DNA of 64,000 bases from a plasmid, in the NCBI RefSeq assembly GCF_054482525.1, contig NZ_JBTHVG010000007.1; one strand, written 5' to 3'. A program made the translations under genes and the position numbers. Numbering within the stretch: the stretch's first letter is position 1; every line of letters starts with the position of its first letter. The notes below the pieces were generated by a model. The model made no database searches. It was not told where the DNA came from and saw only the letters and a list, made by a program, of their open reading frames with translations. Positions 2,202 through 38,657 of this stretch are shown in pieces.

Positions 2202-2990
2202 TCAACGCAAGATTCTCTCAATCGTTGCTTTGGCATATCGAACGAACGCGGCCGTCTCTTCGACGCGCATTGCTAGGTCGTCGTCCTCGCTACCCAGGTA
2301 CGCCGCGCGTGCCTTGCAGATGAGGGGCCGATGCTCGGCAGGCAAACGCTCCGATACCCATGCGGCAGCAACGTCCTTAGGAGCAATGAGACCAGTTGAA
2401 GCGCTGTACCAAATGCGAGCAAGAGCAAGAACGACGTTCCGCTCGTCACCCTTCCAATCCGACTCTGCATTCCACTGGGCAATAGTGTCGAAAAGCGCCT
2501 TGGAGAAATGCTCCTTCGGCACCGGCTCGAAAAACGTGGCTGCGGATGGGCCTAGAAGCGCAAGGCTGTGTTGCCTCGCCTTGGTCAGCAAAATCGCAAG
2601 ATCGTGATCCAGAACGGCAGGCTCGAACGTTCCGGAAAGGATGTCGTGGCGGAGCCACTCACCGAACTGAAGCTCACGCCGCGCCGGATAGCGCCAAGGC
2701 ACTACTTCGCTTCGAGCGACAACAGTTAGCTCCAGCGGTCGCCATGTTCCGCCATCGCCTGGCGGTGATGAGACTTTCAGCAAATCGAGCATTAGCGCCT
2801 GCCGGAGCGAATCGTTAGGTGCGGCGCTGACGGTCACGAGCAAGTCTATGTCGCTGTCCGGCTTCAGCCCTCCATCGATCGCAGATCCGAACAGGTGGAT
2901 TGTGTCCAGTGTCGCAGCCAGATGGCGCTCGATCACCGCGCGAGCGTGGGACAGCTGCTTGAAAACTTGTGCAGGGAAAAATTCACCCAT
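2202..2990 (-). CDS. aadA: Aminoglycoside 3''-adenylyltransferase AadA (streptomycin/spectinomycin resistance); allele not determined, possibly aadA16-like
   Basis: 262-aa ORF with AadA motifs (ERHL...HL[FY]GSA[IV]DGGLKP.SDIDLLVTV...GDERNVVL.L.RIWYSA.TG.IAPKDVAA.W); gene cassette between dfrA and 3'-CS with attC-like sequence downstream. Confidence 0.9.
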   Translation of the reverse strand: MGEFFPAQVFKQLSHARAVIERHLAATLDTIHLFGSAIDGGLKPDSDIDLLVTVSAAPNDSLRQALMLDLLKVSSPPGDGGTWRPLELTVVARSEVVPWRYPARRELQFGEWLRHDILSGTFEPAVLDHDLAILLTKARQHSLALLGPSAATFFEPVPKEHFSKALFDTIAQWNAESDWKGDERNVVLALARIWYSASTGLIAPKDVAAAWVSERLPAEHRPLICKARAAYLGSEDDDLAMRVEETAAFVRYAKATIERILR

Positions 2991-3120
2991 GATGCCTAAC
3001 GTTAAGTTCAGCGGCAGCTTTTAAGTTGCGGCTTTGTGGAATACTTTTGCGCAGCAAAACCACAAAGACGCGACTTAAAAGCTGTCCAAGGAGCGAAGCG
3101 ACTGGTGCTGCAACGCATTG

Positions 3121-3594
3121 TTAGCCTTTTTTCCAAATCTGGTATGTATAATTTATATTAGACATAAAAAACTGTTCAAAAACCAAATTGAAATTCTCAG
3201 GCATTATAGGGAATTTGATATCACCTTCGACTTCAACGTGAACAGTAGACAAATGAATTATATCTGCTTTTTCAATAAGGCTATTATAGATTTGACCCCC
3301 GCCAGAGACATATACATGATCTGTAACTTTTGATAGCTCTTTCAAAGCATTTTCTATTGAAGGAAAAACTAGGACGTTTTCATTTGAGCTTGAAATTCCG
3401 TTCTTTGACACTACTGCATATTTGCGATTTGGAAGAACACCCATAGAGTCAAATGTTTTTCTTCCGACAAGGAGCCATTGATTATATGTGAGCGCTTTAA
3501 AGAGTAGTTGCTCACCTTTTACTGACCACGGGATATCAGGACCACTACCGATTACGCCATTTTCTGACACTGCAGAAATCAATGATATTTTCAA
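3121..3594 (-). CDS. dfrA: Trimethoprim-resistant dihydrofolate reductase DfrA (dfrA1-like family; allele not determined, possibly dfrA27-like)
   Basis: 157 codons from a TTG start preceded by AAGGGAG; product [48 protein letters not shown]... typical of dfrA1-family; first cassette next to attI1. Confidence 0.85.
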
Positions 3595-3751
3595 TTTAAC
3601 TCCCTTAATGGCTAACTTTGTTTTAGGGCGACTGCCCTGCTGCGTAACATCGTTGCTGCTCCATAACATCAAACATCGACCCACGGCGTAACGCGCTTGC
3701 TGCTTGGATGCCCGAGGCATAGACTGTACAAAAAAACAGTCATAACAAGCC

Positions 3752-4765
3752 ATGAAAACCGCCACTGCGCCGTTACCACCGCTGCGTTCGGTCAAGGTTC
3801 TGGACCAGTTGCGTGAGCGCATACGCTACTTGCATTACAGTTTACGAACCGAACAGGCTTATGTCCACTGGGTTCGTGCCTTCATCCGTTTCCACGGTGT
3901 GCGTCACCCGGCAACCTTGGGCAGCAGCGAAGTCGAGGCATTTCTGTCCTGGCTGGCGAACGAGCGCAAGGTTTCGGTCTCCACGCATCGTCAGGCATTG
4001 GCGGCCTTGCTGTTCTTCTACGGCAAGGTGCTGTGCACGGATCTGCCCTGGCTTCAGGAGATCGGAAGACCTCGGCCGTCGCGGCGCTTGCCGGTGGTGC
4101 TGACCCCGGATGAAGTGGTTCGCATCCTCGGTTTTCTGGAAGGCGAGCATCGTTTGTTCGCCCAGCTTCTGTATGGAACGGGCATGCGGATCAGTGAGGG
4201 TTTGCAACTGCGGGTCAAGGATCTGGATTTCGATCACGGCACGATCATCGTGCGGGAGGGCAAGGGCTCCAAGGATCGGGCCTTGATGTTACCCGAGAGC
4301 TTGGCACCCAGCCTGCGCGAGCAGCTGTCGCGTGCACGGGCATGGTGGCTGAAGGACCAGGCCGAGGGCCGCAGCGGCGTTGCGCTTCCCGACGCCCTTG
4401 AGCGGAAGTATCCGCGCGCCGGGCATTCCTGGCCGTGGTTCTGGGTTTTTGCGCAGCACACGCATTCGACCGATCCACGGAGCGGTGTCGTGCGTCGCCA
4501 TCACATGTATGACCAGACCTTTCAGCGCGCCTTCAAACGTGCCGTAGAACAAGCAGGCATCACGAAGCCCGCCACACCGCACACCCTCCGCCACTCGTTC
4601 GCGACGGCCTTGCTCCGCAGCGGTTACGACATTCGAACTGTGCAGGATCTGCTCGGCCATTCCGACGTCTCTACGACGATGATTTACACGCATGTGCTGA
4701 AAGTTGGCGGTGCCGGAGTGCGCTCACCGCTTGATGCGCTGCCGCCCCTCACTAGTGAGAGGTAG
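3752..4765 (+). CDS. intI1: Class 1 integron integrase IntI1
   Basis: 337-aa [53 protein letters not shown]..., tyrosine recombinase motifs (HTLRHSFAT...[15 protein letters not shown]). Confidence 0.95.
3839..3867 (-). promoter_or_regulatory. Integron cassette promoter Pc (TGGACA - 17 bp - TAAACT, the hybrid PcH1 configuration) inside the 5' end of intI1
   Basis: Minus-strand -35 TGGACA (3862-3867) and -10 TAAACT (3839-3844) with 17-bp spacer, directed into the cassette array. Confidence 0.6.
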
Positions 4766-5601: not shown

Positions 5602-6421
5602 GGCACTGTTGCAAAGTTAGCGATGAGGCAGCCTTTTGTCTTATTCAAAGGCCTTACATTTCAAAAACTCTGCTTACCAGGCGCATTTCGCCCAGGGGAT
5701 CACCATAATAAAATGCTGAGGTCTGGCCTTTGCGTAGTGCACGCATCACCTCAATACCTTTGATGGTGGCGTAAGCCGTCTTCATGGATTTAAATCCCAG
5801 CGTGGCGTTGATTATCCGTTTCAGTTTGCCATGATCGCATTCAATCACGTTGTTCCGGTACTTAATCTGTCGGTGTTCAACGTCAGACGGGCACCGGCCT
5901 TCGCGTTTGAGCAGAGCAAGCGCGCGACCATAGGCGGGCGCTTTATCCGTGTTGATGAATCGTGGGATCTGCCACTTCTTCACGTTGTTGAGGATTTTAC
6001 CCAGAAACCGGTATGCAGCTTTGCTGTTACGACGGGAGGAGAGATAAAAATCGACAGTGCGGCCCCGGCTGTCGACGGCCCGGTACAGATACGCCCAGCG
6101 GCCATTGACCTTCACGTAGGTTTCATCCATGTGCCACGGGCAAAGATCGGAAGGGTTACGCCAGTACCAGCGCAGCCGTTTTTCCATTTCAGGCGCATAA
6201 CGCTGAACCCAGCGGTAAATCGTGGAGTGATCGACATTCACTCCGCGTTCAGCCAGCATCTCCTGCAGCTCACGGTAACTGATGCCGTATTTGCAGTACC
6301 AGCGTACGGCCCACAGAATGATGTCACGCTGAAAATGCCGGCCTTTGAATGGGTTCATGTGCAGCTCCATCAGCAAAAGGGGATGATAAGTTTATCACCA
6401 CCGACTATTTGCAACAGTGCC
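5602..6421 (-). mobile_element. IS26 copy 1 (820 bp, IS6 family)
   Basis: Bounded by GGCACTGTTGCAAA terminal inverted repeats; encodes Tnp26. Confidence 0.95.
5654..6358 (-). CDS. tnpA: IS26 transposase Tnp26 (copy 1; carries a Thr where copies 2 and 3 have Ala in ...RKGQ[T/A]SAFYY...)
   Basis: MNPFKGRHFQRDIILWAVRWYCKYGISYRELQEMLAERGVNVDHSTIYRWVQRYAPEMEK... Confidence 0.95.
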   Translation of the reverse strand: MNPFKGRHFQRDIILWAVRWYCKYGISYRELQEMLAERGVNVDHSTIYRWVQRYAPEMEKRLRWYWRNPSDLCPWHMDETYVKVNGRWAYLYRAVDSRGRTVDFYLSSRRNSKAAYRFLGKILNNVKKWQIPRFINTDKAPAYGRALALLKREGRCPSDVEHRQIKYRNNVIECDHGKLKRIINATLGFKSMKTAYATIKGIEVMRALRKGQTSAFYYGDPLGEMRLVSRVFEM

Positions 6422-7713
6422 GTCGTAAACGGTCGAGTTTCATGATCCGTTTGAGGTGGGCGAAAAGCATCTCCACCTTCTTTCGTTCGCAGCGAGAGAC
6501 GAGGTACTCCGGTGTCTTGGCGATGCGTCGAGCCACGTCGCGGGCAGCCTCATGGATGCTGCGGACGATCTTCCGATTCGGCGTGTTGGGGCAGCATTTC
6601 GCTTTCAACGGGCAGGTGGCGCAGTCGGTTTGGCTGGAGCGGTAAATGACGGTTTTGGCCTTAGTTACCCGCGACCTTTGCTGGGTGAAGGCGCGCCATT
6701 CACTGCGTAGCGGTTTGCCGGCTGGGCAGCGATATTCATTGGCGTCCTGACTCCAGTGAAAGTCGTTACTGGAGAGGCTGTCGTCCTTGCGCTCGGTCTT
6801 GTCCCACACCGGCACATGCGGTTCGATGTCCTTTTCTTCGACCATCCAGGCCAGCATCGGGGCGGTGCCATAAGCGGTATCGCCGATAAGGCGTTCCGGT
6901 GTGAGATCGAACTGCGCCTCGACACGCTCGACCATCGTCCTAGTCGAATCGACTTCGGCGGTACGGTGCGCCGGGGTAGCTTCCACGTCCATGATCACAC
7001 CGTGCTCAGTGTCGATCAGGTAATTCGTGGAGTAGGCAAAAAAGGCCGGGCCACCTGGCGCTGCTGTCCAACGGGACTGAGGATCAGTGAGCGAAATTTT
7101 CTTGGGAAGAGCCTCAGCCAGCGCCTCTTCATCAAGGGCTTCGAGGTACTCGCGCACTGCGCGGCTGCTGAGCTTTGGATCGTTCCAATCGACCTCATCT
7201 CCCGCCACCCCACGTTGCCGGCTGGCATCCGCCTTAATGATGCTGGCGTCGACGGCGAAACCTTCACCCTTGACTAGGCCGGCTGCCATGCAGCGCCGCA
7301 GCACCTCATTGAATAACCAGCGGAATAGATCGCTGTCACGAAAACGCCCATGGCGATTCTTCGAGAAGGTCGAGTGATTGGGGACTTCGTCTTCCAGACC
7401 CAACCGGCAGAACCAGCGATAGGCCAGGTTCAGGTGCACCTCTTCGCACAATCGCCGCTCGGAACGAATGCCATAGCAAGTAGCCGACGACCAGCATGCG
7501 CACCATCAACTCCGGGTCAATCGAGGGACGCCCGATGGGGCTATAGAAATCTGCCAGGTAGGCACGTAGATCACTGAGATCCAAGCACTGGTCGATGCTG
7601 CGCAGGAGATGTTGGGCCGGGACGTGATCTTCCAGATTGAACGAGTAGAACAGGCGCTGCTGTCCTCCCGGTAACTGTCCCATCATGCTGTTCGCCCCCA
7701 CGCTCGCTGACAA
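6422..7713 (-). pseudogene. IS5/IS1182-family transposase, frameshifted and 3'-truncated by IS26
   Basis: Two overlapping minus-strand frames (N-part MSASVGANSMMGQLPGGQQRLFYSFNLEDHVPAQHLLRSIDQ...; C-part with DDE-like region) that together resemble one transposase; reading frame runs into the IS26 end. Confidence 0.55.
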
Positions 7714-7800
7714 AGCAATTTTGCCAACGGCATGGGGAGGCCGCTACTTTTTCAACAGAATCGGCCGCACACAGCCATTCGGCTCAACAGAACCCTGCCT

Positions 7801-8958
7801 TTACCCCACCAAACTCCGGAAACTCGCCCGGTAGTCCGTCGGCTTGAGATGCACATGTTGGCTGAGGTCGCCGGGTAGCGTGAACAGGCGCGGACCGTCC
7901 CGAAACTGGAACACGCGATACAGATGGAATTGATCGCCCGCCTCCTTGGAGAATTCGAGTTCGTTGTGGCTGACCAAGAAAGACGAGCCTACCCCGCCAT
8001 TGGTGGTTTTCACCTCGATGAAGCGCTCATGGGCGTCCTCTTCGAACGACAGGATGTCGAACCCCGCACCGTCTCCCTGGGTGTCGGACACCCAATCCAG
8101 CCGCTGAAAAAGCTCTGGGTGGCCGAGCTCGGTCAGGCGTTGCTGTTCGTAGCCAATCACCCACTGCTCCCCTGCCCGGCCCAGCTTGCGGTTGGCTTCA
8201 TCGCGAGCGGCATAATCGAACTTTCGCGGTAGGCGTTGCCGTAGAGATGCCGGGGTACGCACAAGCACTTCACGGGCGGGTGGTTCTACCAAAGCCGCTC
8301 GGTAGGTTTTGTCACCCGGAAGTTTTACCTCCTCCAGGGCATCGACAAGAGCGCCGACCGTCTGCTGATGTTCCAGAACGTAGGCGTGTACGGATTTACG
8401 CAGCAGCAGTTGGCTGTTGCCGCGTGGCTTGTAGCCGTTGATATAGGGCAGGCCCAGGGCATCGAGTACGGCGCTAATGTTCTGGTGCTTGAGCTCGACT
8501 GAAGACTTGCTGCGACCGTTCAGCAGTTGGCGCAGTGCCTGGTTGTGCTCGGACTTGTTGTACGGCTCCCCAGCCGCCTCGGCACGCAGCATGTCGAAAT
8601 AGTCTTCGACCGTGGCCAGGACCTCTTCTTCGGACCAGTCTTCGCCGATGCGAATGATGCGAAACCCGAGCCGCGTCAGCGCCGGAACGACGGTCGCCTC
8701 GCCACCGGAGAAGCTGTCAGCAGTGAGCGGGCCCTGCTCGGGAAATTGCTTGCCGAAGGCCACACCGGCGATGGCCTTGGAATCGCAATCGGTGCCGGTC
8801 TTCGGATCACGTACCAGGAAGTCGCGGGACTTGCCGTAGCCGTGGCGCGCCAGGAATTTCGTGCGGCCCAGTTGCACGAACTCATCGATGGCAGCCTGCA
8901 CGGCGGCGGGGCTTCGAAGCTGGGAGAGTTGAGACACAGGGTCCTTCCTTACTGTCAT
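7801..8958 (-). CDS. Putative restriction-endonuclease-like protein: N-terminal DNA-binding-like domain plus C-terminal DUF3883/NOV-C-like PD-(D/E)xK nuclease domain (function inferred)
   Basis: 385 aa from ATG at 8958 (MTVRKDPVSQ...); C-terminal region ...GAGFDILSFEEDAHERFIEVKTTNGG...HLYRVFQF resembles a D...E.K nuclease core. The ORF track extends to 9114 but the upstream part overlaps a separate small ORF. Confidence 0.45.
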   Translation of the reverse strand: MTVRKDPVSQLSQLRSPAAVQAAIDEFVQLGRTKFLARHGYGKSRDFLVRDPKTGTDCDSKAIAGVAFGKQFPEQGPLTADSFSGGEATVVPALTRLGFRIIRIGEDWSEEEVLATVEDYFDMLRAEAAGEPYNKSEHNQALRQLLNGRSKSSVELKHQNISAVLDALGLPYINGYKPRGNSQLLLRKSVHAYVLEHQQTVGALVDALEEVKLPGDKTYRAALVEPPAREVLVRTPASLRQRLPRKFDYAARDEANRKLGRAGEQWVIGYEQQRLTELGHPELFQRLDWVSDTQGDGAGFDILSFEEDAHERFIEVKTTNGGVGSSFLVSHNELEFSKEAGDQFHLYRVFQFRDGPRLFTLPGDLSQHVHLKPTDYRASFRSLVG

Positions 8959-8987
8959 GGTGTGCCGGGAACCGCCGAGCCACGAGA

Positions 8988-9233
8988 TTATGAGTAGCCC
9001 CTGAACAGAAACGTCACGATAAAAGCCGTGAACGCCACCAGGCCCATTAAATCCCTTGCGTATTTGCAGCCCGTGCTGTCCAAACCTGTACCAGGTCCGA
9101 TCAACACGCTCCAACCATTGAGGTACGAAAACACCGCCTGACCGAACAAAAAATGCGTGATAGCCGCCGCAGCCATGACGCCGGAATCGTCAGACAGGCT
9201 GTAGCTGTTGACCATTGCCCTGTACGCCTGCAT
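8988..9233 (-). CDS. Small hydrophobic protein (81 aa), possibly co-transcribed with the downstream nuclease-like gene
   Basis: ORF MQAYRAMVNSY...GLVAFTAFIVTFLFRGYS with hydrophobic stretches; ends about 30 bp before the ATG of the next gene on the same strand. Confidence 0.25.
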   Translation of the reverse strand: MQAYRAMVNSYSLSDDSGVMAAAAITHFLFGQAVFSYLNGWSVLIGPGTGLDSTGCKYARDLMGLVAFTAFIVTFLFRGYS

Positions 9234-9519
9234 CTGAAATGGCTATTGCCCTGATGGGAGCCGGCTTTTCAGCCACCGACACCAGCGATGCCGTCAATAT
9301 TCTTTACCCGATAACCATGACCGTACAAGCTAACAAGGCCTGGCAAGCCAGCGGACTTAAAAAGTCTTTTTTTCTACCATCCCACAAAAAAGTTCGTGGT
9401 GGAGAAAAGATAAGCTATGCAAGGCTTTAGGAGACGTGGTTTTTCAGGATGACGAAGAACGATTCGGCGCTAGGTGCAACATAGGTGCATCGCACGAGCG
9501 CTAGGAACGGCGAAAAAAG

Positions 9520-9552
9520 GCGGACGTGGCGAAATCGGTAGACGCAGCAGAC
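9520..9552 (+). tRNA. tRNA-Leu(UAA) exon 1 fragment (positions 1-32: acceptor 5' strand, D-arm, anticodon-stem 5' strand), cut by IS26
   Basis: GCGGACG-UG-GCGAAAUCGGUAGACGC-A-GCAGA-C has a tRNA-Leu-like D-arm; acceptor strand is exactly complementary to CGUCCGC at 12929-12935 on the minus strand. Confidence 0.6.
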
Positions 9553-10372
9553 GGCACTGTTGCAAATAGTCGGTGGTGATAAACTTATCATCCCCTTTTG
9601 CTGATGGAGCTGCACATGAACCCATTCAAAGGCCGGCATTTTCAGCGTGACATCATTCTGTGGGCCGTACGCTGGTACTGCAAATACGGCATCAGTTACC
9701 GTGAGCTGCAGGAGATGCTGGCTGAACGCGGAGTGAATGTCGATCACTCCACGATTTACCGCTGGGTTCAGCGTTATGCGCCTGAAATGGAAAAACGGCT
9801 GCGCTGGTACTGGCGTAACCCTTCCGATCTTTGCCCGTGGCACATGGATGAAACCTACGTGAAGGTCAATGGCCGCTGGGCGTATCTGTACCGGGCCGTC
9901 GACAGCCGGGGCCGCACTGTCGATTTTTATCTCTCCTCCCGTCGTAACAGCAAAGCTGCATACCGGTTTCTGGGTAAAATCCTCAACAACGTGAAGAAGT
10001 GGCAGATCCCACGATTCATCAACACGGATAAAGCGCCCGCCTATGGTCGCGCGCTTGCTCTGCTCAAACGCGAAGGCCGGTGCCCGTCTGACGTTGAACA
10101 CCGACAGATTAAGTACCGGAACAACGTGATTGAATGCGATCATGGCAAACTGAAACGGATAATCAACGCCACGCTGGGATTTAAATCCATGAAGACGGCT
10201 TACGCCACCATCAAAGGTATTGAGGTGATGCGTGCACTACGCAAAGGCCAGGCCTCAGCATTTTATTATGGTGATCCCCTGGGCGAAATGCGCCTGGTAA
10301 GCAGAGTTTTTGAAATGTAAGGCCTTTGAATAAGACAAAAGGCTGCCTCATCGCTAACTTTGCAACAGTGCC
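9553..10372 (+). mobile_element. IS26 copy 2 (820 bp)
   Basis: GGCACTGTTGCAAA inverted repeats; Tnp26 ORF on plus strand; 8 bp to its left (9545-9552) are CAGCAGAC. Confidence 0.95.
9616..10320 (+). CDS. tnpA: IS26 transposase Tnp26 (copy 2)
   Basis: Translation identical to copy 3. Confidence 0.95.
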   Translation: MNPFKGRHFQRDIILWAVRWYCKYGISYRELQEMLAERGVNVDHSTIYRWVQRYAPEMEKRLRWYWRNPSDLCPWHMDETYVKVNGRWAYLYRAVDSRGRTVDFYLSSRRNSKAAYRFLGKILNNVKKWQIPRFINTDKAPAYGRALALLKREGRCPSDVEHRQIKYRNNVIECDHGKLKRIINATLGFKSMKTAYATIKGIEVMRALRKGQASAFYYGDPLGEMRLVSRVFEM

Positions 10373-11381
10373 GGACTTTTCAAGTCTCGGAAGGTTTCTT
10401 CAATCTGCATTCGCTTCGAATAGATATTAACAAGTTGTTTGGGTGTTCGAATTTCAACAGGTAAGTTAGTTGCTAGAACCCATGGCTCCTTTGCCGACGC
10501 TGAGTAGATTTTAGGTGACGGGTGGTGACAATGAGTCCGTGTCGAGCGCTGATTTTTTCGGCCTTTAGAGCGAGATTTATACAATAGAATTTGGCATGAG
10601 ATTGGATTGCTTTTAGTCAGCCTCTTATAGCCTAAAGTCTTTGAGTGACTAGATGACATATCATGTAAGTTGCTGATAGGTTTCCAGTTTTCCGCTCCTA
10701 GGTCTGCATATTGTACTTTTCCTCTTACTCGACTTAACCAGTACCAACCCAGCTTCTCAACGGATTTATACCATGGCACTTTAAAGCCAGCATCACTGAC
10801 AATGAGCGGTGTGGTGTTACTCGGTAGAATGCTCGCAAGGTCGGCTAGAAATTGGTCATGAGCTTTCTTTGAACATTGCTCTGAAAGCGGGAACGCTTTC
10901 TCATAAAGAGTAACAGAACGACCGTGTAGTGCGACTGAAGCTCGCAATACCATAAGTCGTTTTTGCTCACGAATATCAGACCAGTCAACAAGTACAATGG
11001 GCATCGTATTGCCCGAACAGATAAAGCTAGCATGCCAACGGTATACAGCGAGTCGCTCTTTGTGGAGGTGACGATTACCTAACAATCGGTCGATTCGTTT
11101 GATGTTATGTTTTGTTCTCGCTTTGGTTGGCAGGTTACGGCCAAGTTCGGTAAGAGTGAGAGTTTTACAGTCAAGTAATGCGTGGCAAGCCAACGTTAAG
11201 CTGTTGAGTCGTTTTAAGTGTAATTCGGGGCAGAATTGGTAAAGAGAGTCGTGTAAAATATCGAGTTCGCACATCTTGTTGTCTGATTATTGATTTTTCG
11301 CGAAACCATTTGATCATATGACAAGATGTGTATCCACCTTAACTTAATGATTTTTACCAAAATCATTAGGGGATTCATCAG
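10373..11381 (-). mobile_element. Truncated IS10 (outer end plus 5' two-thirds of the transposase gene), cut by IS26
   Basis: Outer end ...CTGATGAATCCCCTAATGATTTTGGTAAAAATCATTAAG (complement at 11343-11381); partial transposase MCELDILHDSLYQFCPELHLKRLNSLTLACHALLDCKTLTLTELGRNLPTKARTKHNIKRIDRLLGNRHLHKERLAVYRWH... (IS4 family, IS10-like) whose frame runs into IS26. Confidence 0.85.
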
Positions 11382-11416
11382 CGTATAGTGTTTTGCAGTT
11401 TAGAGGAGATATCGCG

Positions 11417-12277
11417 ATGCATACGCGGAAGGCAATAACGGAGGCGCTTCAAAAACTCGGAGTCCAAACCGGTGACCTCTTGATGGTGCATGCCTCACTT
11501 AAAGCGATTGGTCCGGTCGAAGGAGGAGCGGAGACGGTCGTTGCCGCGTTACGCTCCGCGGTTGGGCCGACTGGCACTGTGATGGGATACGCGTCGTGGG
11601 ACCGATCACCCTACGAGGAGACTCTGAATGGCGCTCGGCTGGATGACGAAGCCCGCCGTACCTGGCTGCCGTTCGATCCCGCAACAGCCGGGACTTACCG
11701 TGGGTTCGGCCTGCTGAATCAATTTCTGGTTCAAGCCCCCGGCGCGCGGCGCAGCGCGCACCCCGATGCATCGATGGTCGCGGTTGGTCCGCTGGCTGAA
11801 ACGCTGACGGAGCCTCACGAACTCGGTCACGCCTTGGGGGAAGGATCGCCCGTCGAGCGGTTCGTTCGCCTTGGCGGGAAGGCCCTGCTGTTGGGTGCGC
11901 CGCTAAACTCCGTTACCGCATTGCACTACGCCGAGGCGGTTGCCGATATCCCCAACAAACGGTGGGTGACGTATGAGATGCCGATGCTTGGAAGAGACGG
12001 TGAAGTCGCCTGGAAAACGGCATCGGATTACGATTCAAACGGCATTCTCGATTGCTTTGCTATCGAAGGAAAGCCGGATGCGGTTGAAACTATAGCAAAT
12101 GCTTACGTGAAGCTCGGTCGCCATCGAGAAGGTGTCGTGGGCTTTGCTCAGTGCTACCTGTTCGACGCGCAGGACATCGTGACGTTCGGCGTCACCTATC
12201 TTGAGAAGCATTTCGGAACCACTCCGATCGTGCCTCCGCACGAGGCCGTCGAGCGCTCTTGCGAGCCTTCAGGTTAG
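11417..12277 (+). CDS. aac(3)-II: Aminoglycoside N(3)-acetyltransferase AAC(3)-II (gentamicin/tobramycin resistance)
   Basis: 286-aa product MHTRKAITEALQKLGVQTGDLLMVHASLKAIGPVEGGAETVVAALRSAVGPTGTVMGYASWDRSPYEETLNGARLDDEARRTW... Confidence 0.95.
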   Translation: MHTRKAITEALQKLGVQTGDLLMVHASLKAIGPVEGGAETVVAALRSAVGPTGTVMGYASWDRSPYEETLNGARLDDEARRTWLPFDPATAGTYRGFGLLNQFLVQAPGARRSAHPDASMVAVGPLAETLTEPHELGHALGEGSPVERFVRLGGKALLLGAPLNSVTALHYAEAVADIPNKRWVTYEMPMLGRDGEVAWKTASDYDSNGILDCFAIEGKPDAVETIANAYVKLGRHREGVVGFAQCYLFDAQDIVTFGVTYLEKHFGTTPIVPPHEAVERSCEPSG

Positions 12278-12289
12278 AGGCCGTCGACA

Positions 12290-12832
12290 ATGATAATCTG
12301 GATCAACGGACCTTTCGGCGCCGGAAAGACGACGCTCGCTAAGCGGCTGCGCGATCGGCGTTCCAAATCGCTGATCTTTGACCCCGAGGAAATCGGGTTC
12401 GTGGTGAAAGAAACGGTCCCCATGCCAGCGAGCGGAGACTATCAGGATCTCCCCTTGTGGAGGGGACTTACGATCGCGGCGGTCAGGGAGATTCGAAGGA
12501 ATTACTCGCAGGACATCATCATCCCAATGACGCTCGTGCACCCGGACTATCTGACTGAGATACTCGACGGGGTAAGGCGGATCGACGATCAGCTGCTGCA
12601 CATCTTTCTGACGCTCAACGAGGACCTATTGCGTCACCGGATCGCGAACCAGACCATGCATCCTGACCCGAATCGAAATGCGGAGATTCGAGAGTGGCGA
12701 TTAGCGAATGTCGCCCGATGCTTGGCCGCAAGGGAACGGCTTCCATGCACAACCCGTGTTCTCGATAGTGGTGCACACACCAGCGATGAACTCGCAGCGA
12801 TGGTGCTCGACGGAATCGATGGGCGCACCTGA
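12290..12832 (+). CDS. tmrB: TmrB-like ATP-binding protein (tunicamycin resistance family)
   Basis: 180-aa ORF with P-loop MIIWINGPFGAGKTTLAKRL; known aac(3)-II/tmrB pairing. Confidence 0.85.
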   Translation: MIIWINGPFGAGKTTLAKRLRDRRSKSLIFDPEEIGFVVKETVPMPASGDYQDLPLWRGLTIAAVREIRRNYSQDIIIPMTLVHPDYLTEILDGVRRIDDQLLHIFLTLNEDLLRHRIANQTMHPDPNRNAEIREWRLANVARCLAARERLPCTTRVLDSGAHTSDELAAMVLDGIDGRT

Positions 12833-12924
12833 TCGCCTTCGACGCCTGCGCAAAGCGTAGCGCGAGGGTGGCGGGCTCACGACCAAACGCCCAGAGGTCG
12901 ATCATCGCAGGGATGTTTGGCTTT

Positions 12925-12975
12925 GTGGTGCGGACGACGGGACTCGAACCCGTACTCTCACAGAGAAGCAGATTT
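12925..12975 (-). tRNA. tRNA-Leu(UAA) exon 2 (A35 to CCA: anticodon AA, anticodon-stem 3' strand, long variable arm, T-arm, acceptor 3' strand)
   Basis: Minus-strand RNA AAAA-UCUGC-UUCUCUGUGAGAGU-ACGGGUUCGAGUCCCGU-CGUCCGC-A-CCA; stems pair with the exon 1 fragment at 9520-9552. Confidence 0.6.
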
Positions 12976-13189
12976 TCGTACCACCTCGACTTTCGCCGCC
13001 GTCTGATGACGTTCGTGGTCTGGACTGTCCCTTCGCCATTGCCCGAAGGCTTTAGGCGCCGCCCGTCCAGTCTCTACACCTTCCCCCGAAGGGGCTTGGC
13101 TCGGGATTGGCTTAGGGTATTGCCCGTTAGCGTTCCCCGACTTTGAGCGGTTCTACTCCGCGGATTTCCCCGCGGGCACTCCAATTTTA
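12976..13189 (-). ncRNA. Group I (tRNA-Leu-type) intron, about 214 nt, inserted between U34 and A35 of tRNA-Leu(UAA)
   Basis: Follows exon ...CUU; ends with G before exon 2; contains elements recalled from cyanobacterial tRNA-Leu and Azoarcus tRNA-Ile introns (CCCGAGCCAAGCC; GAAGGUGUAGAGACUGGACGGG...CCUAA). Confidence 0.6.
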
Positions 13190-13199
13190 AAGTCTGCTG

Positions 13200-14019
13200 G
13201 GCACTGTTGCAAAGTTAGCGATGAGGCAGCCTTTTGTCTTATTCAAAGGCCTTACATTTCAAAAACTCTGCTTACCAGGCGCATTTCGCCCAGGGGATCA
13301 CCATAATAAAATGCTGAGGCCTGGCCTTTGCGTAGTGCACGCATCACCTCAATACCTTTGATGGTGGCGTAAGCCGTCTTCATGGATTTAAATCCCAGCG
13401 TGGCGTTGATTATCCGTTTCAGTTTGCCATGATCGCATTCAATCACGTTGTTCCGGTACTTAATCTGTCGGTGTTCAACGTCAGACGGGCACCGGCCTTC
13501 GCGTTTGAGCAGAGCAAGCGCGCGACCATAGGCGGGCGCTTTATCCGTGTTGATGAATCGTGGGATCTGCCACTTCTTCACGTTGTTGAGGATTTTACCC
13601 AGAAACCGGTATGCAGCTTTGCTGTTACGACGGGAGGAGAGATAAAAATCGACAGTGCGGCCCCGGCTGTCGACGGCCCGGTACAGATACGCCCAGCGGC
13701 CATTGACCTTCACGTAGGTTTCATCCATGTGCCACGGGCAAAGATCGGAAGGGTTACGCCAGTACCAGCGCAGCCGTTTTTCCATTTCAGGCGCATAACG
13801 CTGAACCCAGCGGTAAATCGTGGAGTGATCGACATTCACTCCGCGTTCAGCCAGCATCTCCTGCAGCTCACGGTAACTGATGCCGTATTTGCAGTACCAG
13901 CGTACGGCCCACAGAATGATGTCACGCTGAAAATGCCGGCCTTTGAATGGGTTCATGTGCAGCTCCATCAGCAAAAGGGGATGATAAGTTTATCACCACC
14001 GACTATTTGCAACAGTGCC
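13200..14019 (-). mobile_element. IS26 copy 3 (820 bp)
   Basis: GGCACTGTTGCAAA inverted repeats; 8 bp to its left (13192-13199) are GTCTGCTG, the reverse complement of CAGCAGAC. Confidence 0.95.
13252..13956 (-). CDS. tnpA: IS26 transposase Tnp26 (copy 3)
   Basis: Translation identical to copy 2. Confidence 0.95.
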   Translation of the reverse strand: MNPFKGRHFQRDIILWAVRWYCKYGISYRELQEMLAERGVNVDHSTIYRWVQRYAPEMEKRLRWYWRNPSDLCPWHMDETYVKVNGRWAYLYRAVDSRGRTVDFYLSSRRNSKAAYRFLGKILNNVKKWQIPRFINTDKAPAYGRALALLKREGRCPSDVEHRQIKYRNNVIECDHGKLKRIINATLGFKSMKTAYATIKGIEVMRALRKGQASAFYYGDPLGEMRLVSRVFEM

Positions 14020-15095
<1,076 letters not shown>

Positions 15096-37284: not shown

Positions 37285-38657
37285 CGCGTGCTCCCTCCGA
37301 AGTGATAGTTGTTTTGGTAACGACTGAGCATGCGGGCGGAAAGCTGCTGACGCATGTAGCTCATCTGACGATCGACAACCAGCAGCGCATCCTGCTGTAC
37401 CTGCACCTGTGACTGAAACGCCGCAATCTGCCGGGTGGCATCATTCATGTTGTCGTTAATATGTCCGATAACCGCTTCGTCATAATTTCCCGTGGCCACC
37501 ATCGCCCGGGCCTGCTGTATCAGCTCCTGAATGTACTGCAGCAGGATGTCGTAACCGATATAGTCCGTCAGCTGGTAAATCATGCTGTTGGAAACTCCGA
37601 GCATCTGCGGGTCAACCAGGTATTTGAAGACGGGGATGGTGGTACTGGAAATAAAGCCTTTTTCCTTGTCATCCAGAGGCGTGTCACTGACCGCCTTGTT
37701 CTGAATGCTGGCCAGAAGTTTAGTAATCTGAGACTTCAGTGCATTATCCCGGCTGATAGTCACCGGTGTGTCTGCCACCACTTTCAGGCATTTATCAGAA
37801 TCGTTGCAGTGATAAATTTTTGCTGTGCCGCCTTCCATCATGGCCCGGATAATTGAGCGGTCAGTGGTTCTGGCTGACAGCGGTGTGATTTCGCCGTTGG
37901 GACCAAACACCAGTGAGCCGGTCAGCGTCATCACAAATTCTTTCAGCTCTTTGTTGCCGTCAAACATTCTGTTTTTGGAAAGCGCATTCCACATGATGTT
38001 GATGTTTTTGGTCACCCGCTCCTTATCCTTGTCGCTGGCTTTATCCCTGACACTGTCAGATTTCCCGCCAACGGTACATCCCTGCCGGGAAGCCGCCCAG
38101 TCAGCAAAAATATTGCTCTCACCGGCAATGTCCTGACAGACTTTCTGCTGGGACACCTGCGTCCGGGGGAAAAGCCCGCCGATAATCCCCTGTGCAGCCT
38201 GGCAGGAACTGAGGTTCATACTGTTAATGTCGCTTGCCATTTTCTGCACGAAGTCTTTTGCGGTTTTTATTTCCGGCACCGTTGTCTGCAGGGCAAGGTC
38301 AAAAAAGTAACCGGCAGCATTGCTCATAATCTGCTTAACAAAACGCTGCAACTGCTCACCATTAATAAAACTGAACGAGCCGAGATAGGCGTCGATGCCG
38401 CCACATCCAGCATTGATATCCGGCAGCGTCATGGAAATTAGCTGAACATTTTTGACCTGAGTACGGGCATACAGGGAGCCACCGTAAGCATAGCCGGCGG
38501 CCTGCCCCTGCCAGACGCCCGGCTGTGTGGTATTGGAAGCAAATCCCAGCTTATTAAAGAACTGATTCATGTCGCTGTTCACATCCGCTGACGCTGCAGG
38601 CGTCACCGTCAGTAAGGCGGCACAAAGAACCAGAAGAGGTTTAATGCGTGGCATCAT
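37281..38657 (-). CDS. traH: TraH pilus assembly protein
   Basis: 458-aa ORF with signal peptide MMPRIKPLLVLCAALLTVTPAASA. Confidence 0.9.
   Translation of the reverse strand: MMPRIKPLLVLCAALLTVTPAASADVNSDMNQFFNKLGFASNTTQPGVWQGQAAGYAYGGSLYARTQVKNVQLISMTLPDINAGCGGIDAYLGSFSFINGEQLQRFVKQIMSNAAGYFFDLALQTTVPEIKTAKDFVQKMASDINSMNLSSCQAAQGIIGGLFPRTQVSQQKVCQDIAGESNIFADWAASRQGCTVGGKSDSVRDKASDKDKERVTKNINIMWNALSKNRMFDGNKELKEFVMTLTGSLVFGPNGEITPLSARTTDRSIIRAMMEGGTAKIYHCNDSDKCLKVVADTPVTISRDNALKSQITKLLASIQNKAVSDTPLDDKEKGFISSTTIPVFKYLVDPQMLGVSNSMIYQLTDYIGYDILLQYIQELIQQARAMVATGNYDEAVIGHINDNMNDATRQIAAFQSQVQVQQDALLVVDRQMSYMRQQLSARMLSRYQNNYHFGGSTR

What the first reader, a model, noticed from the sequence alone, without database searches (positions are those of the whole stretch)
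11417..12975. aac(3)-II and tmrB lie directly next to the intron-containing tRNA-Leu: a clue to their chromosomal source
In the reconstructed pre-inversion order, tmrB and aac(3)-II sit immediately beside the 3' end of the tRNA-Leu(UAA) gene with only about 90 bp of spacer. tRNA genes are common island integration sites, and intron-containing tRNA-Leu genes are lineage-restricted, so the tRNA and intron could serve as a phylogenetic tag for the organism that donated this resistance module.
Basis: inference. Interest (0 to 1): 0.5.

Follow-up and report, generated by a model that had tools for sequence, protein, structure and literature searches.

The report
Resistance genes' hitch-hiking intron tRNA
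The gentamicin-resistance gene aac(3)-IId and its partner tmrB still sit beside an unannotated, intron-containing tRNA-Leu gene from their original host, and this linkage traces the pair to soil-type Alphaproteobacteria (Brucella/Ochrobactrum- and Ensifer-like), although the exact donor species is not in any collection searched.

Summary
That gene carries a 213-nt group I intron. An IS26 inversion, marked by 8-bp CAGCAGAC copies at 9545-9552 and 13192-13199, moved the first 33 nt of the gene to 9520-9552.

The unbroken arrangement occurs at 100% identity in over 1,100 plasmids and in about 11% of complete E. coli genomes. The tRNA is not annotated there.

The adjacency was not made on plasmids:
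- A 'Brucella anthropi' chromosomal contig is collinear with aac(3), tmrB, spacer, the whole tRNA with intron, and a 161-nt upstream block (81.8% over 2,009 nt).
- Ensifer/Shinella-like contigs keep tmrB plus a truncated relic of the same tRNA.
- Every intact copy found lies in Alphaproteobacteria.

The ~2.1-kb piece is therefore a relic of an unsampled alphaproteobacterial donor, probably Hyphomicrobiales.

As a tag the tRNA is blunt. Its exons are identical, and its intron is 94-96% identical, in contigs whose neighbours point to three orders.

The rest of the published module (orf1182/DUF3883 and ISCfr1) is Pseudomonas/Stutzerimonas-like, so the module is a mosaic.

The parts
6422..7771 (-). 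ISCfr1 (IS1182 family), truncated by IS26 copy A (5602-6421). Part of the published module but not of the alphaproteobacterial fragment.
   Evidence: pCTX-M3 annotation, mapped with window = L001 + 2824. ISCfr1 plus DUF3883 match a Stutzerimonas kunmingensis assembly (L024) at 89.6% over 2,786 nt, with the IS in the same position.
7801..8940 (-). orf1182 = DUF3883 (ScoMcrA_N + NOV_C) gene of Pseudomonadaceae type.
   Evidence: Best relatives are 82-89% identical (aa) in Stutzerimonas and Pseudomonas. DNA homology stops 16-20 nt beyond its start codon. In those genomes a 1,714-1,729-aa helicase gene precedes it.
8957..9339 (.). About 380 bp of unassigned origin, containing the annotated orf228.
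   Evidence: No DNA or protein match to any fetched gamma- or alphaproteobacterial locus. GC falls to about 0.49-0.54.
9340..9358 (+). Last ~19 nt of a second, upstream tRNA-Leu 5'-half copy (...CAGCGGACTT). This is about where the alphaproteobacterial fragment begins.
   Evidence: Alignment with native loci, which all carry a full 5'-half copy at this place. BLAST homology to alphaproteobacterial loci starts at 9349-9353.
9359..9519 (+). 161-nt block upstream of the tRNA gene, starting AAAAAGTC plus a T-run. The annotated orf192 (9242-9433) overlaps it and is probably spurious.
   Evidence: 57-80% identical to the block in the native loci compared (L028 is the 80% case), and 75% to L040. A simple scan found no sigma-70 consensus promoter or terminator.
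9520..9552 (+). tRNA-Leu(UAA) 5' exon, nt 1-33. Positions 9545-9552 are one copy of the IS26 8-bp target duplication.
   Evidence: Direct reading. Identical to the 5' exon in all nine native genes aligned and in L040.
9553..10372 (+). IS26 copy B, the new copy made by the inversion event.
   Evidence: 820-nt inverted repeat, 100% identical to copy C. Flanked by the target duplication.
10373..11381 (+). IS10-like (IS4 family) fragment cut by IS26 B. Its outer end lies 35 nt before the aac(3)-IId ATG.
   Evidence: Rfam RNA-OUT at 11267-11336, 98.8 bits. The terminal repeat ...GGGGATTCATCAG ends at 11381.
11417..12277 (+). aac(3)-IId, aminoglycoside 3-N-acetyltransferase.
   Evidence: 100% DNA match to plasmid regions where AMRFinder calls aac(3)-IId at 100% identity. 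Pfam Antibiotic_NAT in its relatives.
12290..12832 (+). tmrB, a gene for an AAA_33/AAA_18 ATP-binding protein annotated as 'tunicamycin resistance protein'.
12833..12925 (.). 93-bp spacer between the tmrB stop and the tRNA 3' end.
   Evidence: Counted. Its first 47 bp are shared with an aac(3)-IIe context. Spacers of 87 nt and about 107 nt occupy the same place in L040 and in L014/L039.
12926..12976 (-). tRNA-Leu(UAA) 3' exon, 51 nt, ending in CCA.
   Evidence: 100% identical to L040, L017, L018 and 6 of the 7 metagenome genes aligned (L037 differs at one base).
12977..13189 (-). Group I intron, 213 nt, 60.6% GC, inserted between U34 and A35 of the anticodon. It is complete in this window.
   Evidence: Rfam Intron_gpI E 7e-7 over model positions 1-253. 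The last base is G, and a U.G pair sits at the 5' splice site in the consensus fold. 94-96% identical to native copies.
13190..13199 (-). Last two bases of the 5' exon (13190-13191) and the second, inverted copy of the 8-bp target duplication (13192-13199).
13200..14019 (-). IS26 copy C, the resident copy next to blaTEM-1 (14088-14948) that attacked the tRNA gene.
   Evidence: The pre-inversion order blaTEM-IS26-IS10 fragment-aac(3)-IId-tmrB-tRNA-orf192-orf228-DUF3883 is seen in NZ_CP082121.1.

Best explanation
Window 9340-9552 plus 11382-13191 (about 2.1 kb once the IS26 inversion is undone) is a single contiguous piece of an alphaproteobacterial replicon. It carries aac(3)-IId, tmrB, a 93-bp spacer, and, convergent with them, a complete tRNA-Leu(UAA) gene split by a 213-nt group I intron, with that gene's 161-nt upstream block.

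The tRNA gene is a passive hitch-hiker. It was the resistance genes' neighbour in the donor and was captured with them.

The donor is most likely a member of Hyphomicrobiales related to the Brucella/Ochrobactrum and Ensifer/Sinorhizobium lineages. No collection searched holds it; the best match is 86% nt for the genes and 82% for the whole stretch.

Before or during its entry into Tn2-derived, IS26-bounded resistance regions of Enterobacteriaceae, the fragment was joined to DNA of another lineage (DUF3883-ISCfr1, Pseudomonadaceae-like).

In this particular IncF plasmid, the IS26 next to blaTEM-1 later transposed replicatively into the anticodon stem of the tRNA gene. That inverted 2.8 kb and split the gene, which shows the tRNA is dispensable to the plasmid.

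Shown:
- contiguity and collinearity with a chromosome;
- the lineage of relatives;
- the mosaic structure;
- the inversion signature.

Inferred:
- hitch-hiking;
- the order of the joining events;
- that the intron is still able to splice.
For: Inversion:
- Inverted IS26 copies and inverted 8-bp duplication.
- The intact junction at 100% in 1,161 plasmids and 618 E. coli genomes.
- The pre-inversion order in NZ_CP082121.1.

tRNA and intron:
- ARAGORN calls on the rebuilt gene and on the spliced exons.
- Rfam E 1e-7.
- Nine near-identical native genes, and one compensatory C-G to U-A change in a hairpin of the plasmid copy.

Chromosomal collinearity:
- Module positions 96-2096 match L040 7979-9972 at 81.8% over 2,009 nt.
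- By segment: aac(3) 81.2%, tmrB 80.3%, exons 100%, intron 95.3%, block 75%.
- L040's neighbours cysK and the DEAD helicase fall in core Brucella/Ochrobactrum clusters.

The same linkage, decayed:
- Ensifer sp. B1-9 (L039) and L014-16/L019-20. Neighbours of the L014 locus are at least 90% identical (aa) to Shinella, Ensifer and S. meliloti proteins.

Lineage of the genes:
- The TmrB tree places IId and IIe inside the clade of Sinorhizobium-like and related sequences.
- The best named non-clinical AAC(3) hits are Ensifer sp. B1-9 (86% aa) and B. anthropi (85%).

Lineage of the tRNA:
- The only hits among 100,044 species representatives are Pseudochelatococcus contaminans and Enterovirga aerilata (lineages).
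- Ten JGI metagenome contigs also match; one has a Paracoccus-type neighbour and one a Parvibaculum-type neighbour.

Mosaic.
Against: - No relative exceeds 86% nt (aac(3)-tmrB, L002) or 82% (whole stretch, L040). Family and species of the donor remain inference.
- The nearest aac(3)-tmrB relative (L002, 86%) has no intron-bearing tRNA next to tmrB. It has only a 3'-half relic of a different tRNA-Leu-like gene.
- S. meliloti has tmrB at the syntenic place without aac(3) or a tRNA.
- In L040 the aac(3)-tmrB side of the tRNA is strain-specific. L040's aac-tmrB is closer to the Ensifer-type locus (88.6%) than to the syntenic L002 (80.5%). The gene pair therefore moves among Alphaproteobacteria, and 'chromosomal source' may mean an island rather than a core locus.
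- The spacer is too diverged (42% to L040) to exclude small rearrangements inside it.
- The Rfam score is below the gathering threshold.
Confidence: 0.85

Rival explanations
1. The adjacency was made on mobile elements. IS-mediated events fused an aac(3)-tmrB fragment to an unrelated tRNA fragment, with a junction in the 93-bp spacer.
For: IId and IIe contexts (96.5% identical) part company 7-47 bp after the tmrB stop, so a junction does exist there in at least one of them. The module is a mosaic elsewhere.
Against: tmrB, a spacer of similar length and the same tRNA 3' end, in the same orientation, occur in a B. anthropi chromosome contig and in Ensifer-like contigs at 80-82% identity, without IS26 or ISCfr1. 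The junction is therefore on the IIe side.
Confidence: 0.03
2. The intron-bearing tRNA-Leu(UAA) marks a cyanobacterial (or plastid-related) donor, the classic home of this intron.
For: Same gene and same insertion point (U34/A35) as the cyanobacterial and plastid trnL intron (established knowledge; position read from the sequence).
Against: Every named genome, and both metagenome contigs whose neighbours could be named, are alphaproteobacterial. The intron is 60.6% GC. The linked genes' relatives are Rhizobiaceae and Brucellaceae.
Confidence: 0.02
3. The whole published module (aac(3)-IId-tmrB-tRNA-orf192-orf228-orf1182-ISCfr1) was lifted in one piece from one donor by ISCfr1.
For: The parts are always contiguous on plasmids. 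GC is similar, about 0.57-0.64, over DUF3883 and aac(3)-tmrB.
Against: ISCfr1 plus DUF3883 are 89.6% identical over 2,786 nt to Stutzerimonas DNA, where a helicase gene, not a tRNA, precedes DUF3883. DUF3883 relatives at 82-89% are all Pseudomonas or Stutzerimonas. No DUF3883 lies near the tRNA in any alphaproteobacterial locus. A Pseudomonadaceae host that had already acquired the alphaproteobacterial piece remains possible as an intermediate.
Confidence: 0.07
4. In the donor, aac(3)-tmrB was cargo of a genomic island inserted at the 3' end of the tRNA-Leu gene, not a core chromosomal locus. This is compatible with the best explanation and refines it.
For: In L040 the genes on the tmrB side are strain-specific and end in IS21/Mu-like genes, while the other side is core Brucella/Ochrobactrum. 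L031 and L037 are 99.6% identical up to the CCA and unrelated beyond it. Every genus has a different 3' flank. The pair sits in different contexts in Ensifer-like and Sinorhizobium-like contigs.
Against: No integrase gene was identified among the gene calls of L039-L041 or the ORFs listed near the native tRNA loci, though those ORFs were not searched against family libraries. No flanking direct repeats of the tRNA 3' end were identified. The synteny BA14K-(DJ-1)-aac(3)-tmrB is shared by L002, L013 and L040, and partly by S. meliloti.
Confidence: 0.4

Closest known systems
Group I (IC3-type) intron of cyanobacterial and plastid trnL(UAA)
   Same: Same host gene (tRNA-Leu, anticodon UAA). Same insertion point between U34 and A35. 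No ORF inside. A U.G pair at the 5' splice site and a terminal G. Matches the Rfam group I model over its full length.
   Different: Found here in Alphaproteobacteria and on enterobacterial plasmids, not in cyanobacteria or plastids. Compact (213 nt) and 60.6% GC. Scores below the Rfam gathering threshold. Preceded in all native loci by an extra tRNA 5'-half copy. No phylogeny against cyanobacterial introns could be made here.
Alpha- and betaproteobacterial tRNA group I introns (tRNA-Arg(CCU) of Agrobacterium and Bartonella; tRNA-Ile(CAU) of Azoarcus)
   Same: Small, ORF-less group I introns in anticodon loops of proteobacterial tRNA genes. Those tRNA genes also go unannotated (PMC7717549). 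The cited Paquin et al. 1999 paper (PMC93479, not held; known here only from its title) reports their sporadic distribution and horizontal transfer.
   Different: A different tRNA and a different insertion site. None of those has been reported on resistance plasmids, to my knowledge and in the library searched.
The 'aacC2-tmrB-orf192-orf228-orf1182-ISCfr1' module of Tn2-derived, IS26-bounded resistance regions (pCTX-M3, pEl1573)
   Same: This is that module, at 100% identity (description in PMC7096625).
   Different: The published description lists only ORFs and no tRNA or intron. Here orf192 overlaps the tRNA's upstream block, the module proves to be a mosaic of two lineages, and in this window it is inverted and truncated by IS26.
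Mobile resistance genes traced to a chromosomal origin with co-mobilised neighbours (e.g. aph(3')-VI from Acinetobacter guillouiae; framework of Ebmeyer et al. 2021, PMC7782503)
   Same: A resistance gene carried with flanking chromosomal DNA, and the locus architecture is conserved in related environmental genomes.
   Different: The identity threshold for naming an origin species is not reached (at most 86% nt). The only aminoglycoside genes in that paper's table of origins are APH(3')-VI (printed there as APH(3')-IV) and AAC(6')-Ih.
IS26 intramolecular replicative transposition (inversion type)
   Same: Two inverted IS26 copies, an inverted 8-bp target duplication, and the segment between them inverted.
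   Different: Nothing unusual. The target happened to be the anticodon stem of the tRNA gene.

Membership tests
Group I self-splicing intron (Rfam RF00028) | Match to the covariance model at or above the curated gathering score | tested here: inconclusive
   36.8 bits against a gathering score of 50, but E 7e-7 and 1e-7 over model positions 1-253. Significant, yet below the curators' cut-off.
Group I self-splicing intron (Rfam RF00028) | Removing the intron restores a canonical gene. The 5' exon ends in U paired with G (P1), and the intron ends in G. | tested here: met
   Spliced exons give an 86-nt tRNA-Leu(taa) cloverleaf. The consensus fold pairs U35 with G44. The intron ends ...GGTACG.
Group I self-splicing intron (Rfam RF00028) | Conserved helices supported by covariation | tested here: inconclusive
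   Nine sequences, 97% mean column identity. Only one pair has a change on both sides (C-G to U-A, in the plasmid copy).
Group I self-splicing intron (Rfam RF00028) | Self-splicing activity | not testable with these tools
   Needs in vitro transcription and splicing, or RT-PCR.
AAC(3)-II aminoglycoside acetyltransferases (allele IId) | Identity to the reference allele | tested here: met
   100% DNA identity to plasmid regions where AMRFinder calls aac(3)-IId at 100%. 96% aa to AAC(3)-IIe.
IS26 inversion by intramolecular replicative transposition | Inverted IS26 pair, inverted 8-bp target duplication, and an uninterrupted target elsewhere | tested here: met
Mobile resistance gene with an identified recent origin species (Ebmeyer et al. 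criteria) | Near-identity (about 95% nt or more) between the mobile gene and a chromosomal gene of the proposed origin | tested here: not met
   Best matches are 86.3% (L002), 84% (L013), 81.8% (L040) and 80-81% (L014, L039). No AAC(3) or TmrB between 88% and the clinical alleles was found among 5.8 billion clusters.
Mobile resistance gene with an identified recent origin species (Ebmeyer et al. criteria) | Conserved locus, without the mobilising elements, in related species | tested here: met
   BA14K-(DJ-1)-aac(3)-tmrB occurs in L002, L013 and L040/L041. tmrB followed by the tRNA-Leu gene occurs in L040/L041, and as a relic in L039, L019 and L014. None carries IS26 or ISCfr1.
tRNA-associated genomic island | Integrase gene next to the tRNA, and direct repeats of the tRNA 3' end at both island ends | tested here: inconclusive
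   No integrase gene was identified among the gene calls of L039-L041 or the ORFs listed near the native tRNA loci, but those ORFs were not searched against family libraries. No second 3'-end copy lies within 6-11 kb downstream of the tRNA. Truncated 3' relics exist in L002, L014 and L039.
tRNA-associated genomic island | Strain-specific content abutting the tRNA 3' end | tested here: met
   L040: the tmrB side is strain-specific and the other side is core Brucella/Ochrobactrum. L031 and L037 diverge exactly at the CCA.

The most novel reading that the evidence does not exclude
The intron-bearing tRNA-Leu(UAA) gene is not just a neighbour. It may be part of a laterally moving tRNA locus of Alphaproteobacteria: [161-nt block + intron-split gene] that replaces or inserts into resident tRNA-Leu(UAA) genes at the anticodon loop and leaves the resident 5' half behind. 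In this reading the intron keeps the incoming copy from being a target. The 3' end of this locus would serve as the docking site of the island that carried aac(3)-tmrB. On plasmids the gene would still be transcribed and spliced, so roughly one in nine complete E. coli genomes would express a foreign, self-splicing pre-tRNA.
Probability: 0.25. Interest if true: 0.75.

Novelty: new member of a known kind. Interest (0 to 1): 0.58.

Why it matters
aac(3)-II genes are among the commonest causes of gentamicin and tobramycin resistance in Enterobacteriaceae. They were absent from the 2021 table of confirmed resistance-gene origins that I checked.

The retained tRNA-Leu gene, its intron and the chromosomal loci found here give a concrete search image. 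That image is aac(3)-tmrB convergent with an intron-split tRNA-Leu(UAA) in Brucellaceae/Rhizobiaceae-type genomes. With it the donor can be recognised as soon as it is sequenced.

The results also show that the classic resistance module is a two-lineage mosaic, which implies an intermediate host or plasmid.

Separately, a complete group I intron inside a tRNA gene rides unannotated in about 11-12% of complete E. coli genomes. This is an annotation gap. It is also an easy experimental system for asking whether a foreign self-splicing pre-tRNA is expressed in enterobacteria.

Tried and rejected
- ARAGORN on the raw window misses the tRNA because it is split. It reports only a tRNA-Thr at 37833-37904 inside the tra genes, probably a false positive.
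- The first chromosomal relatives found (L002-L009, L012, L013) have no intron-bearing tRNA beside tmrB, and homology stops at the tmrB stop. This briefly suggested a junction in the spacer. L014-16, and then L040 and L039, overturned that reading.
- Contexts of other clinical tmrB variants (P0005, P0007) are cut by IS91-like or IS3-like elements and give no information.
- The sequence downstream of tmrB in aac(3)-IIe contexts matches nothing fetched.
- The exact-pattern scans required GGTACG or ACG at the intron end. They missed L040, which has GGTATG, so the two-species result understates the distribution. I do not use it to claim rarity.
- A viral-contig scan found nothing, so there is no sign of phage carriage.
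- The simple promoter and terminator scan of the tRNA region found nothing. I make no claim about a promoter or terminator in the 161-nt block.
- Covariation analysis is uninformative at 97% identity.
- Literature searches found no paper linking tmrB or aac(3)-II to rhizobia, or mentioning a tRNA or intron in the module. Paquin et al. 1999 and the Partridge 2018 review are not held.
- The exact inverted arrangement of this window was not seen among the twelve best plasmid records, where the match is broken into two to four pieces.
Full report
**1. What is in the window**

The window is part of an IncF-type E. coli plasmid. It carries tra genes, CopA, FinP/traJ and two sok RNAs.

Around the finding there are three IS26 copies:
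- copy A at 5602-6421;
- copy B at 9553-10372;
- copy C at 13200-14019. B is inverted relative to A and C.

The features in and around the finding are:
- aac(3)-IId at 11417-12277 and tmrB at 12290-12832, both on the + strand;
- a 93-bp spacer after tmrB (12833-12925);
- on the minus strand, the last 51 nt of a tRNA gene ending in CCA (12926-12976);
- a 213-nt insert (12977-13189);
- two further exon bases (13190-13191);
- the octamer GTCTGCTG (13192-13199), lying against IS26 C;
- the first 33 nt of the same tRNA gene at 9520-9552, ending in CAGCAGAC against IS26 B.

Two inverted IS26 copies, each with one copy of an 8-bp target in inverse orientation, are what IS26 intramolecular replicative transposition leaves behind. 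The IS26 next to blaTEM-1 attacked the anticodon stem of the tRNA gene and inverted the 2.8 kb in between.

Undoing the inversion gives a 299-nt gene that ARAGORN recognises as an intron-containing tRNA. The joined exons fold as a standard 86-nt tRNA-Leu with anticodon UAA.

Only one splice assignment leaves a G as the last intron base. That assignment puts the intron between U34 and A35.

**2. The reconstruction is real**

- A 1,400-nt query across the rebuilt junction is covered at least 80% in 1,161 plasmid records. All 30 listed match at 100%, 29 of them as one piece, and they include pCTX-M3.
- The 591-nt tRNA region is present in 655 of 5,426 complete E. coli genomes and is essentially whole in 618.
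- NZ_CP082121.1 shows the pre-inversion order: blaTEM-1, IS26, IS10-like fragment, aac(3)-IId, tmrB, [tRNA], orf192, orf228, DUF3883.
- RefSeq annotation over the tRNA region lists only a 'hypothetical protein'.
- The literature describes the region as 'aacC2-tmrB-orf192-orf228-orf1182-ISCfr1' and mentions no tRNA (PMC7096625).

**3. The insert is a group I intron**

- It aligns to Rfam Intron_gpI over the entire model with E 7e-7 to 1e-7. The score of 36.8 bits is below the gathering score of 50.
- Nine native homologues align at 97% mean column identity, with variation concentrated in hairpin loops.
- The consensus fold pairs the last exon U with a G (P1). It shows one compensatory C-G to U-A change, in the plasmid copy.
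- Splicing itself was not testable.
- The intron is complete in this window. Only the 5' exon is detached.

**4. Is the adjacency ancestral?**

The nearest non-clinical TmrB relatives first found were metagenome contigs L002-L005 (88% aa; 86.3% nt over aac(3)-tmrB), L012 and L013. They share the order Metal_resist, sigma-70, EF-hand, BA14K, aac(3), tmrB with a Sinorhizobium meliloti locus that has tmrB alone. Homology to the plasmid stops at the tmrB stop, and no intron-bearing tRNA is present there.

aac(3)-IIe contexts (96.5% identical) share only 7-47 bp beyond tmrB. At that stage a junction in the spacer looked possible.

Three further results overturned that reading.

First, contigs L014-16 and L019-20 continue past tmrB through a ~107-nt spacer. 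They then run into the 3' exon (2 differences in 51 nt) and the last 44 nt of the intron before breaking off. Neighbours of the L014 locus (which L019-20 share) are at least 90% identical (aa) to Shinella, Ensifer and S. meliloti proteins.

Second, Ensifer sp. B1-9 (L039) has the same relic.

Third, and decisive, a contig of a genome deposited as Brucella anthropi (GCA_008932875.1, L040; also Logan L041) carries this order:
- BA14K, DJ-1, aac(3), tmrB;
- an 87-nt spacer;
- a complete tRNA-Leu(UAA) with intron on the opposite strand;
- the 161-nt block and an extra 5'-half copy.

It is collinear with the plasmid fragment for 2,009 nt at 81.8%. By segment the identities are:
- aac(3) 81.2% nt (84.6% aa);
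- tmrB 80.3%;
- spacer 42%;
- both exons 100%;
- intron 95.3%;
- block 75%.

The genes beyond the tRNA (cysteine synthase A, DEAD-box helicase) belong to clusters made of Brucella/Ochrobactrum proteins on contigs of up to 2.8-2.9 Mb. The linkage is therefore chromosomal and older than the ~20% divergence between these loci. The break 47 bp after tmrB belongs to the IIe lineage.

**5. Where the tRNA and intron live**

- An exact scan of one genome per species (100,044 species) for the intron/3'-exon junction found only Pseudochelatococcus contaminans (L017) and Enterovirga aerilata (L018). They belong to Chelatococcaceae and Methylobacteriaceae respectively, both Hyphomicrobiales.
- The same kind of scan of JGI metagenomes found ten contigs.
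- One of them (L028) has an arginase that clusters at 90% identity with Paracoccus proteins. Another (L032) has a neighbour that clusters with Parvibaculum sp..
- None of these has tmrB. Homology to the plasmid ends within a few bases of the CCA in all but one (L032 runs 14 nt further), and each contig with downstream sequence has a different 3' flank, apart from the same-organism pair L018/L033.
- Across all nine full-length copies aligned, the gene is 94.4-96.0% identical to the plasmid copy, and the exons are identical apart from one base in one contig.
- My pattern required ACG at the intron end, whereas L040 has ATG. The scans therefore understate the distribution and say nothing reliable about rarity.

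**6. Consequence for the tag idea**

The tRNA and intron do point to the same class, and mostly the same order, as the resistance genes. But the tag barely varies between contigs assigned to Hyphomicrobiales and contigs whose neighbours point to Rhodobacterales and Parvibaculales, so it cannot name a genus.

The protein genes are more informative:
- TmrB of IId and IIe nests within the clade holding L013, L002, L012 and S. meliloti, with the L014 group as sister.
- The best named non-clinical AAC(3) relatives are Ensifer sp. B1-9 (86% aa) and B. anthropi (85%), followed by Bradyrhizobium, Geminicoccus, Sinorhizobium, Paracoccus and Microvirga at 67-77%.
- Nothing lies between 88% identity and the clinical alleles in either search. 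The donor is unsampled.
- IId and IIe differ by 3.5% in DNA. They probably represent two captures from related donors (inference).

**7. The module is a mosaic**

DUF3883/orf1182 (7801-8940) has its closest relatives (82-89% aa) in Stutzerimonas and Pseudomonas. A Stutzerimonas kunmingensis assembly (L024) matches pCTX-M3 over ISCfr1 plus DUF3883 at 89.6% for 2,786 nt, with the IS in the same position.

In those genomes DUF3883 is the second gene of a pair, after a 1,714-1,729-aa DEAD/UvrD helicase. On the plasmid, homology ends 16-20 nt past the DUF3883 start.

Alphaproteobacterial homology begins at about 9340-9353. The ~380 bp in between, which contain orf228, match nothing fetched.

The alphaproteobacterial fragment is thus about 2.1 kb, and it was joined to Pseudomonadaceae-type DNA. 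Where and in what order that happened is unknown.

**8. An unexplained feature of the native loci**

In every native locus that reaches far enough upstream, a second copy of a tRNA-Leu 5' half lies 160-161 nt upstream of the real gene. It comprises acceptor, D arm and anticodon stem, ends in ...GACTT, and is followed by AAAAAGTC and a T-run (GGAAAGTC in L029).

- Homology between genera starts at about the first base of this half-copy and ends at, or within a few bases of, the CCA of the real gene.
- The half-copies are 69-89% identical to one another. Their similarity does not track that of the 161-nt block (57-86%).
- No matching 3' half lies within 6-11 kb downstream.
- The plasmid keeps only the last ~19 nt of the half-copy (9340-9358).

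This is compatible with three readings:
- replacement of resident tRNA-Leu genes by an incoming locus through recombination in the tRNA arms;
- a site-specific insertion at the anticodon loop;
- an old partial duplication.

I cannot decide between them. It is the main reason to doubt that the tRNA is a vertically inherited marker.

**9. Island or core locus?**

Points for an island docked at the tRNA 3' end:
- In L040 the proteins checked on the tmrB side of the tRNA (ECF sigma factor, DJ-1, TmrB) fall in clusters with no other Brucella/Ochrobactrum member. Beyond this strain, those clusters hold Sinorhizobium and metagenome sequences (sigma factor), nothing else (DJ-1) or short clinical TmrB fragments (TmrB). 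That side ends in IS21/Mu-like genes, while the other side is core.
- L031 and L037 are 99.6% identical up to the CCA and unrelated after it.
- L040's aac(3)-tmrB-tRNA stretch is closer to the Ensifer-type locus (88.6%) than to the syntenic L002 (80.5%).

Points against:
- No integrase gene or att repeats were identified.
- Several lineages share the BA14K-aac(3)-tmrB order.

**10. Verdict**

- It is too optimistic about the tag's resolution.
- It is incomplete, because the module is a mosaic.
- The module and its genes are well known. I did not find the following in the literature available to me: the intron-split tRNA within the module, its alphaproteobacterial homologues, and the collinear chromosomal locus.

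Noticed in passing
window 9340-9519; L018 about 2929-3124 (- strand); L028 about 10170-10364; L030 about 9258-9455 (- strand); L040 9803-9998 (- strand): All native loci of the intron-bearing tRNA-Leu carry an extra tRNA-Leu 5'-half copy about 161 nt upstream, followed by AAAAAGTC and a T-run (GGAAAGTC in L029). Inter-genus homology runs from that half-copy to the CCA. The half-copies' similarity does not track that of the block between them and the gene. The plasmid keeps only the last ~19 nt.
   Followed up: partly
window 6422-8956; L024 6001-8768: ISCfr1 plus DUF3883/orf1182 are Stutzerimonas/Pseudomonas-like (89.6% nt over 2,786 nt). In those genomes DUF3883 (ScoMcrA_N + NOV_C) follows a 1,714-1,729-aa DEAD/UvrD helicase gene. 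This looks like a two-gene, defence-like unit, and the plasmid has lost the helicase.
   Followed up: partly
window 10373-11416: An IS10-like fragment ends 35 nt before the aac(3)-IId start codon. Its RNA-OUT (11267-11336, + strand, 98.8 bits) points at the gene, so the outward pOUT promoter may drive aac(3)-IId in this arrangement. pCTX-M3 has IS26 upstream instead.
   Followed up: no
L002 10668-10725 (- strand): In the closest chromosomal relative of aac(3)-tmrB, the place of the tRNA gene (~106 nt after tmrB) holds only an anticodon-loop-plus-3'-half relic of a different tRNA-Leu-like gene (...CTTCAAATCCGG...GCCAGCACCA). ARAGORN and Rfam do not detect it.
   Followed up: partly
L031 499-2293 versus L037 1-1795: Two metagenome contigs from sister samples are 99.6% identical up to the last base of the tRNA gene and unrelated beyond it. 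The breakpoint lies exactly at the tRNA 3' end.
   Followed up: no
window 37833-37904: ARAGORN calls a tRNA-Thr(GGU) inside the F-type transfer genes (traH/traG region). Rfam gives no tRNA match at gathering level, so this is probably a false positive.
   Followed up: partly
L010 (NZ_MH924589.1) about 3470-4047; L011 about 2870-4010: aac(3)-IIe contexts (96.5% identical to IId) diverge from IId 47 bp (L010) or 7 bp (L011, at an IS3-family end) after tmrB. The ~580 bp after the L010 breakpoint match nothing fetched.
   Followed up: partly
protein hits: AAC(3) and TmrB homologues fall on contigs of identical length in Geminicoccus roseus, Microvirga rosea, Microvirga lupini and Paracoccus sp. 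Z118. The gene pair may therefore be old and widespread in Alphaproteobacteria. TmrB relatives at 54-57% occur in Micromonospora and Nonomuraea.
   Followed up: no
window 9242-9433 (orf192): The annotated 'hypothetical protein' orf192 overlaps the relic 5' half and the 161-nt block upstream of the tRNA. It has no convincing protein homologue in the native loci and is probably not a gene.
   Followed up: partly
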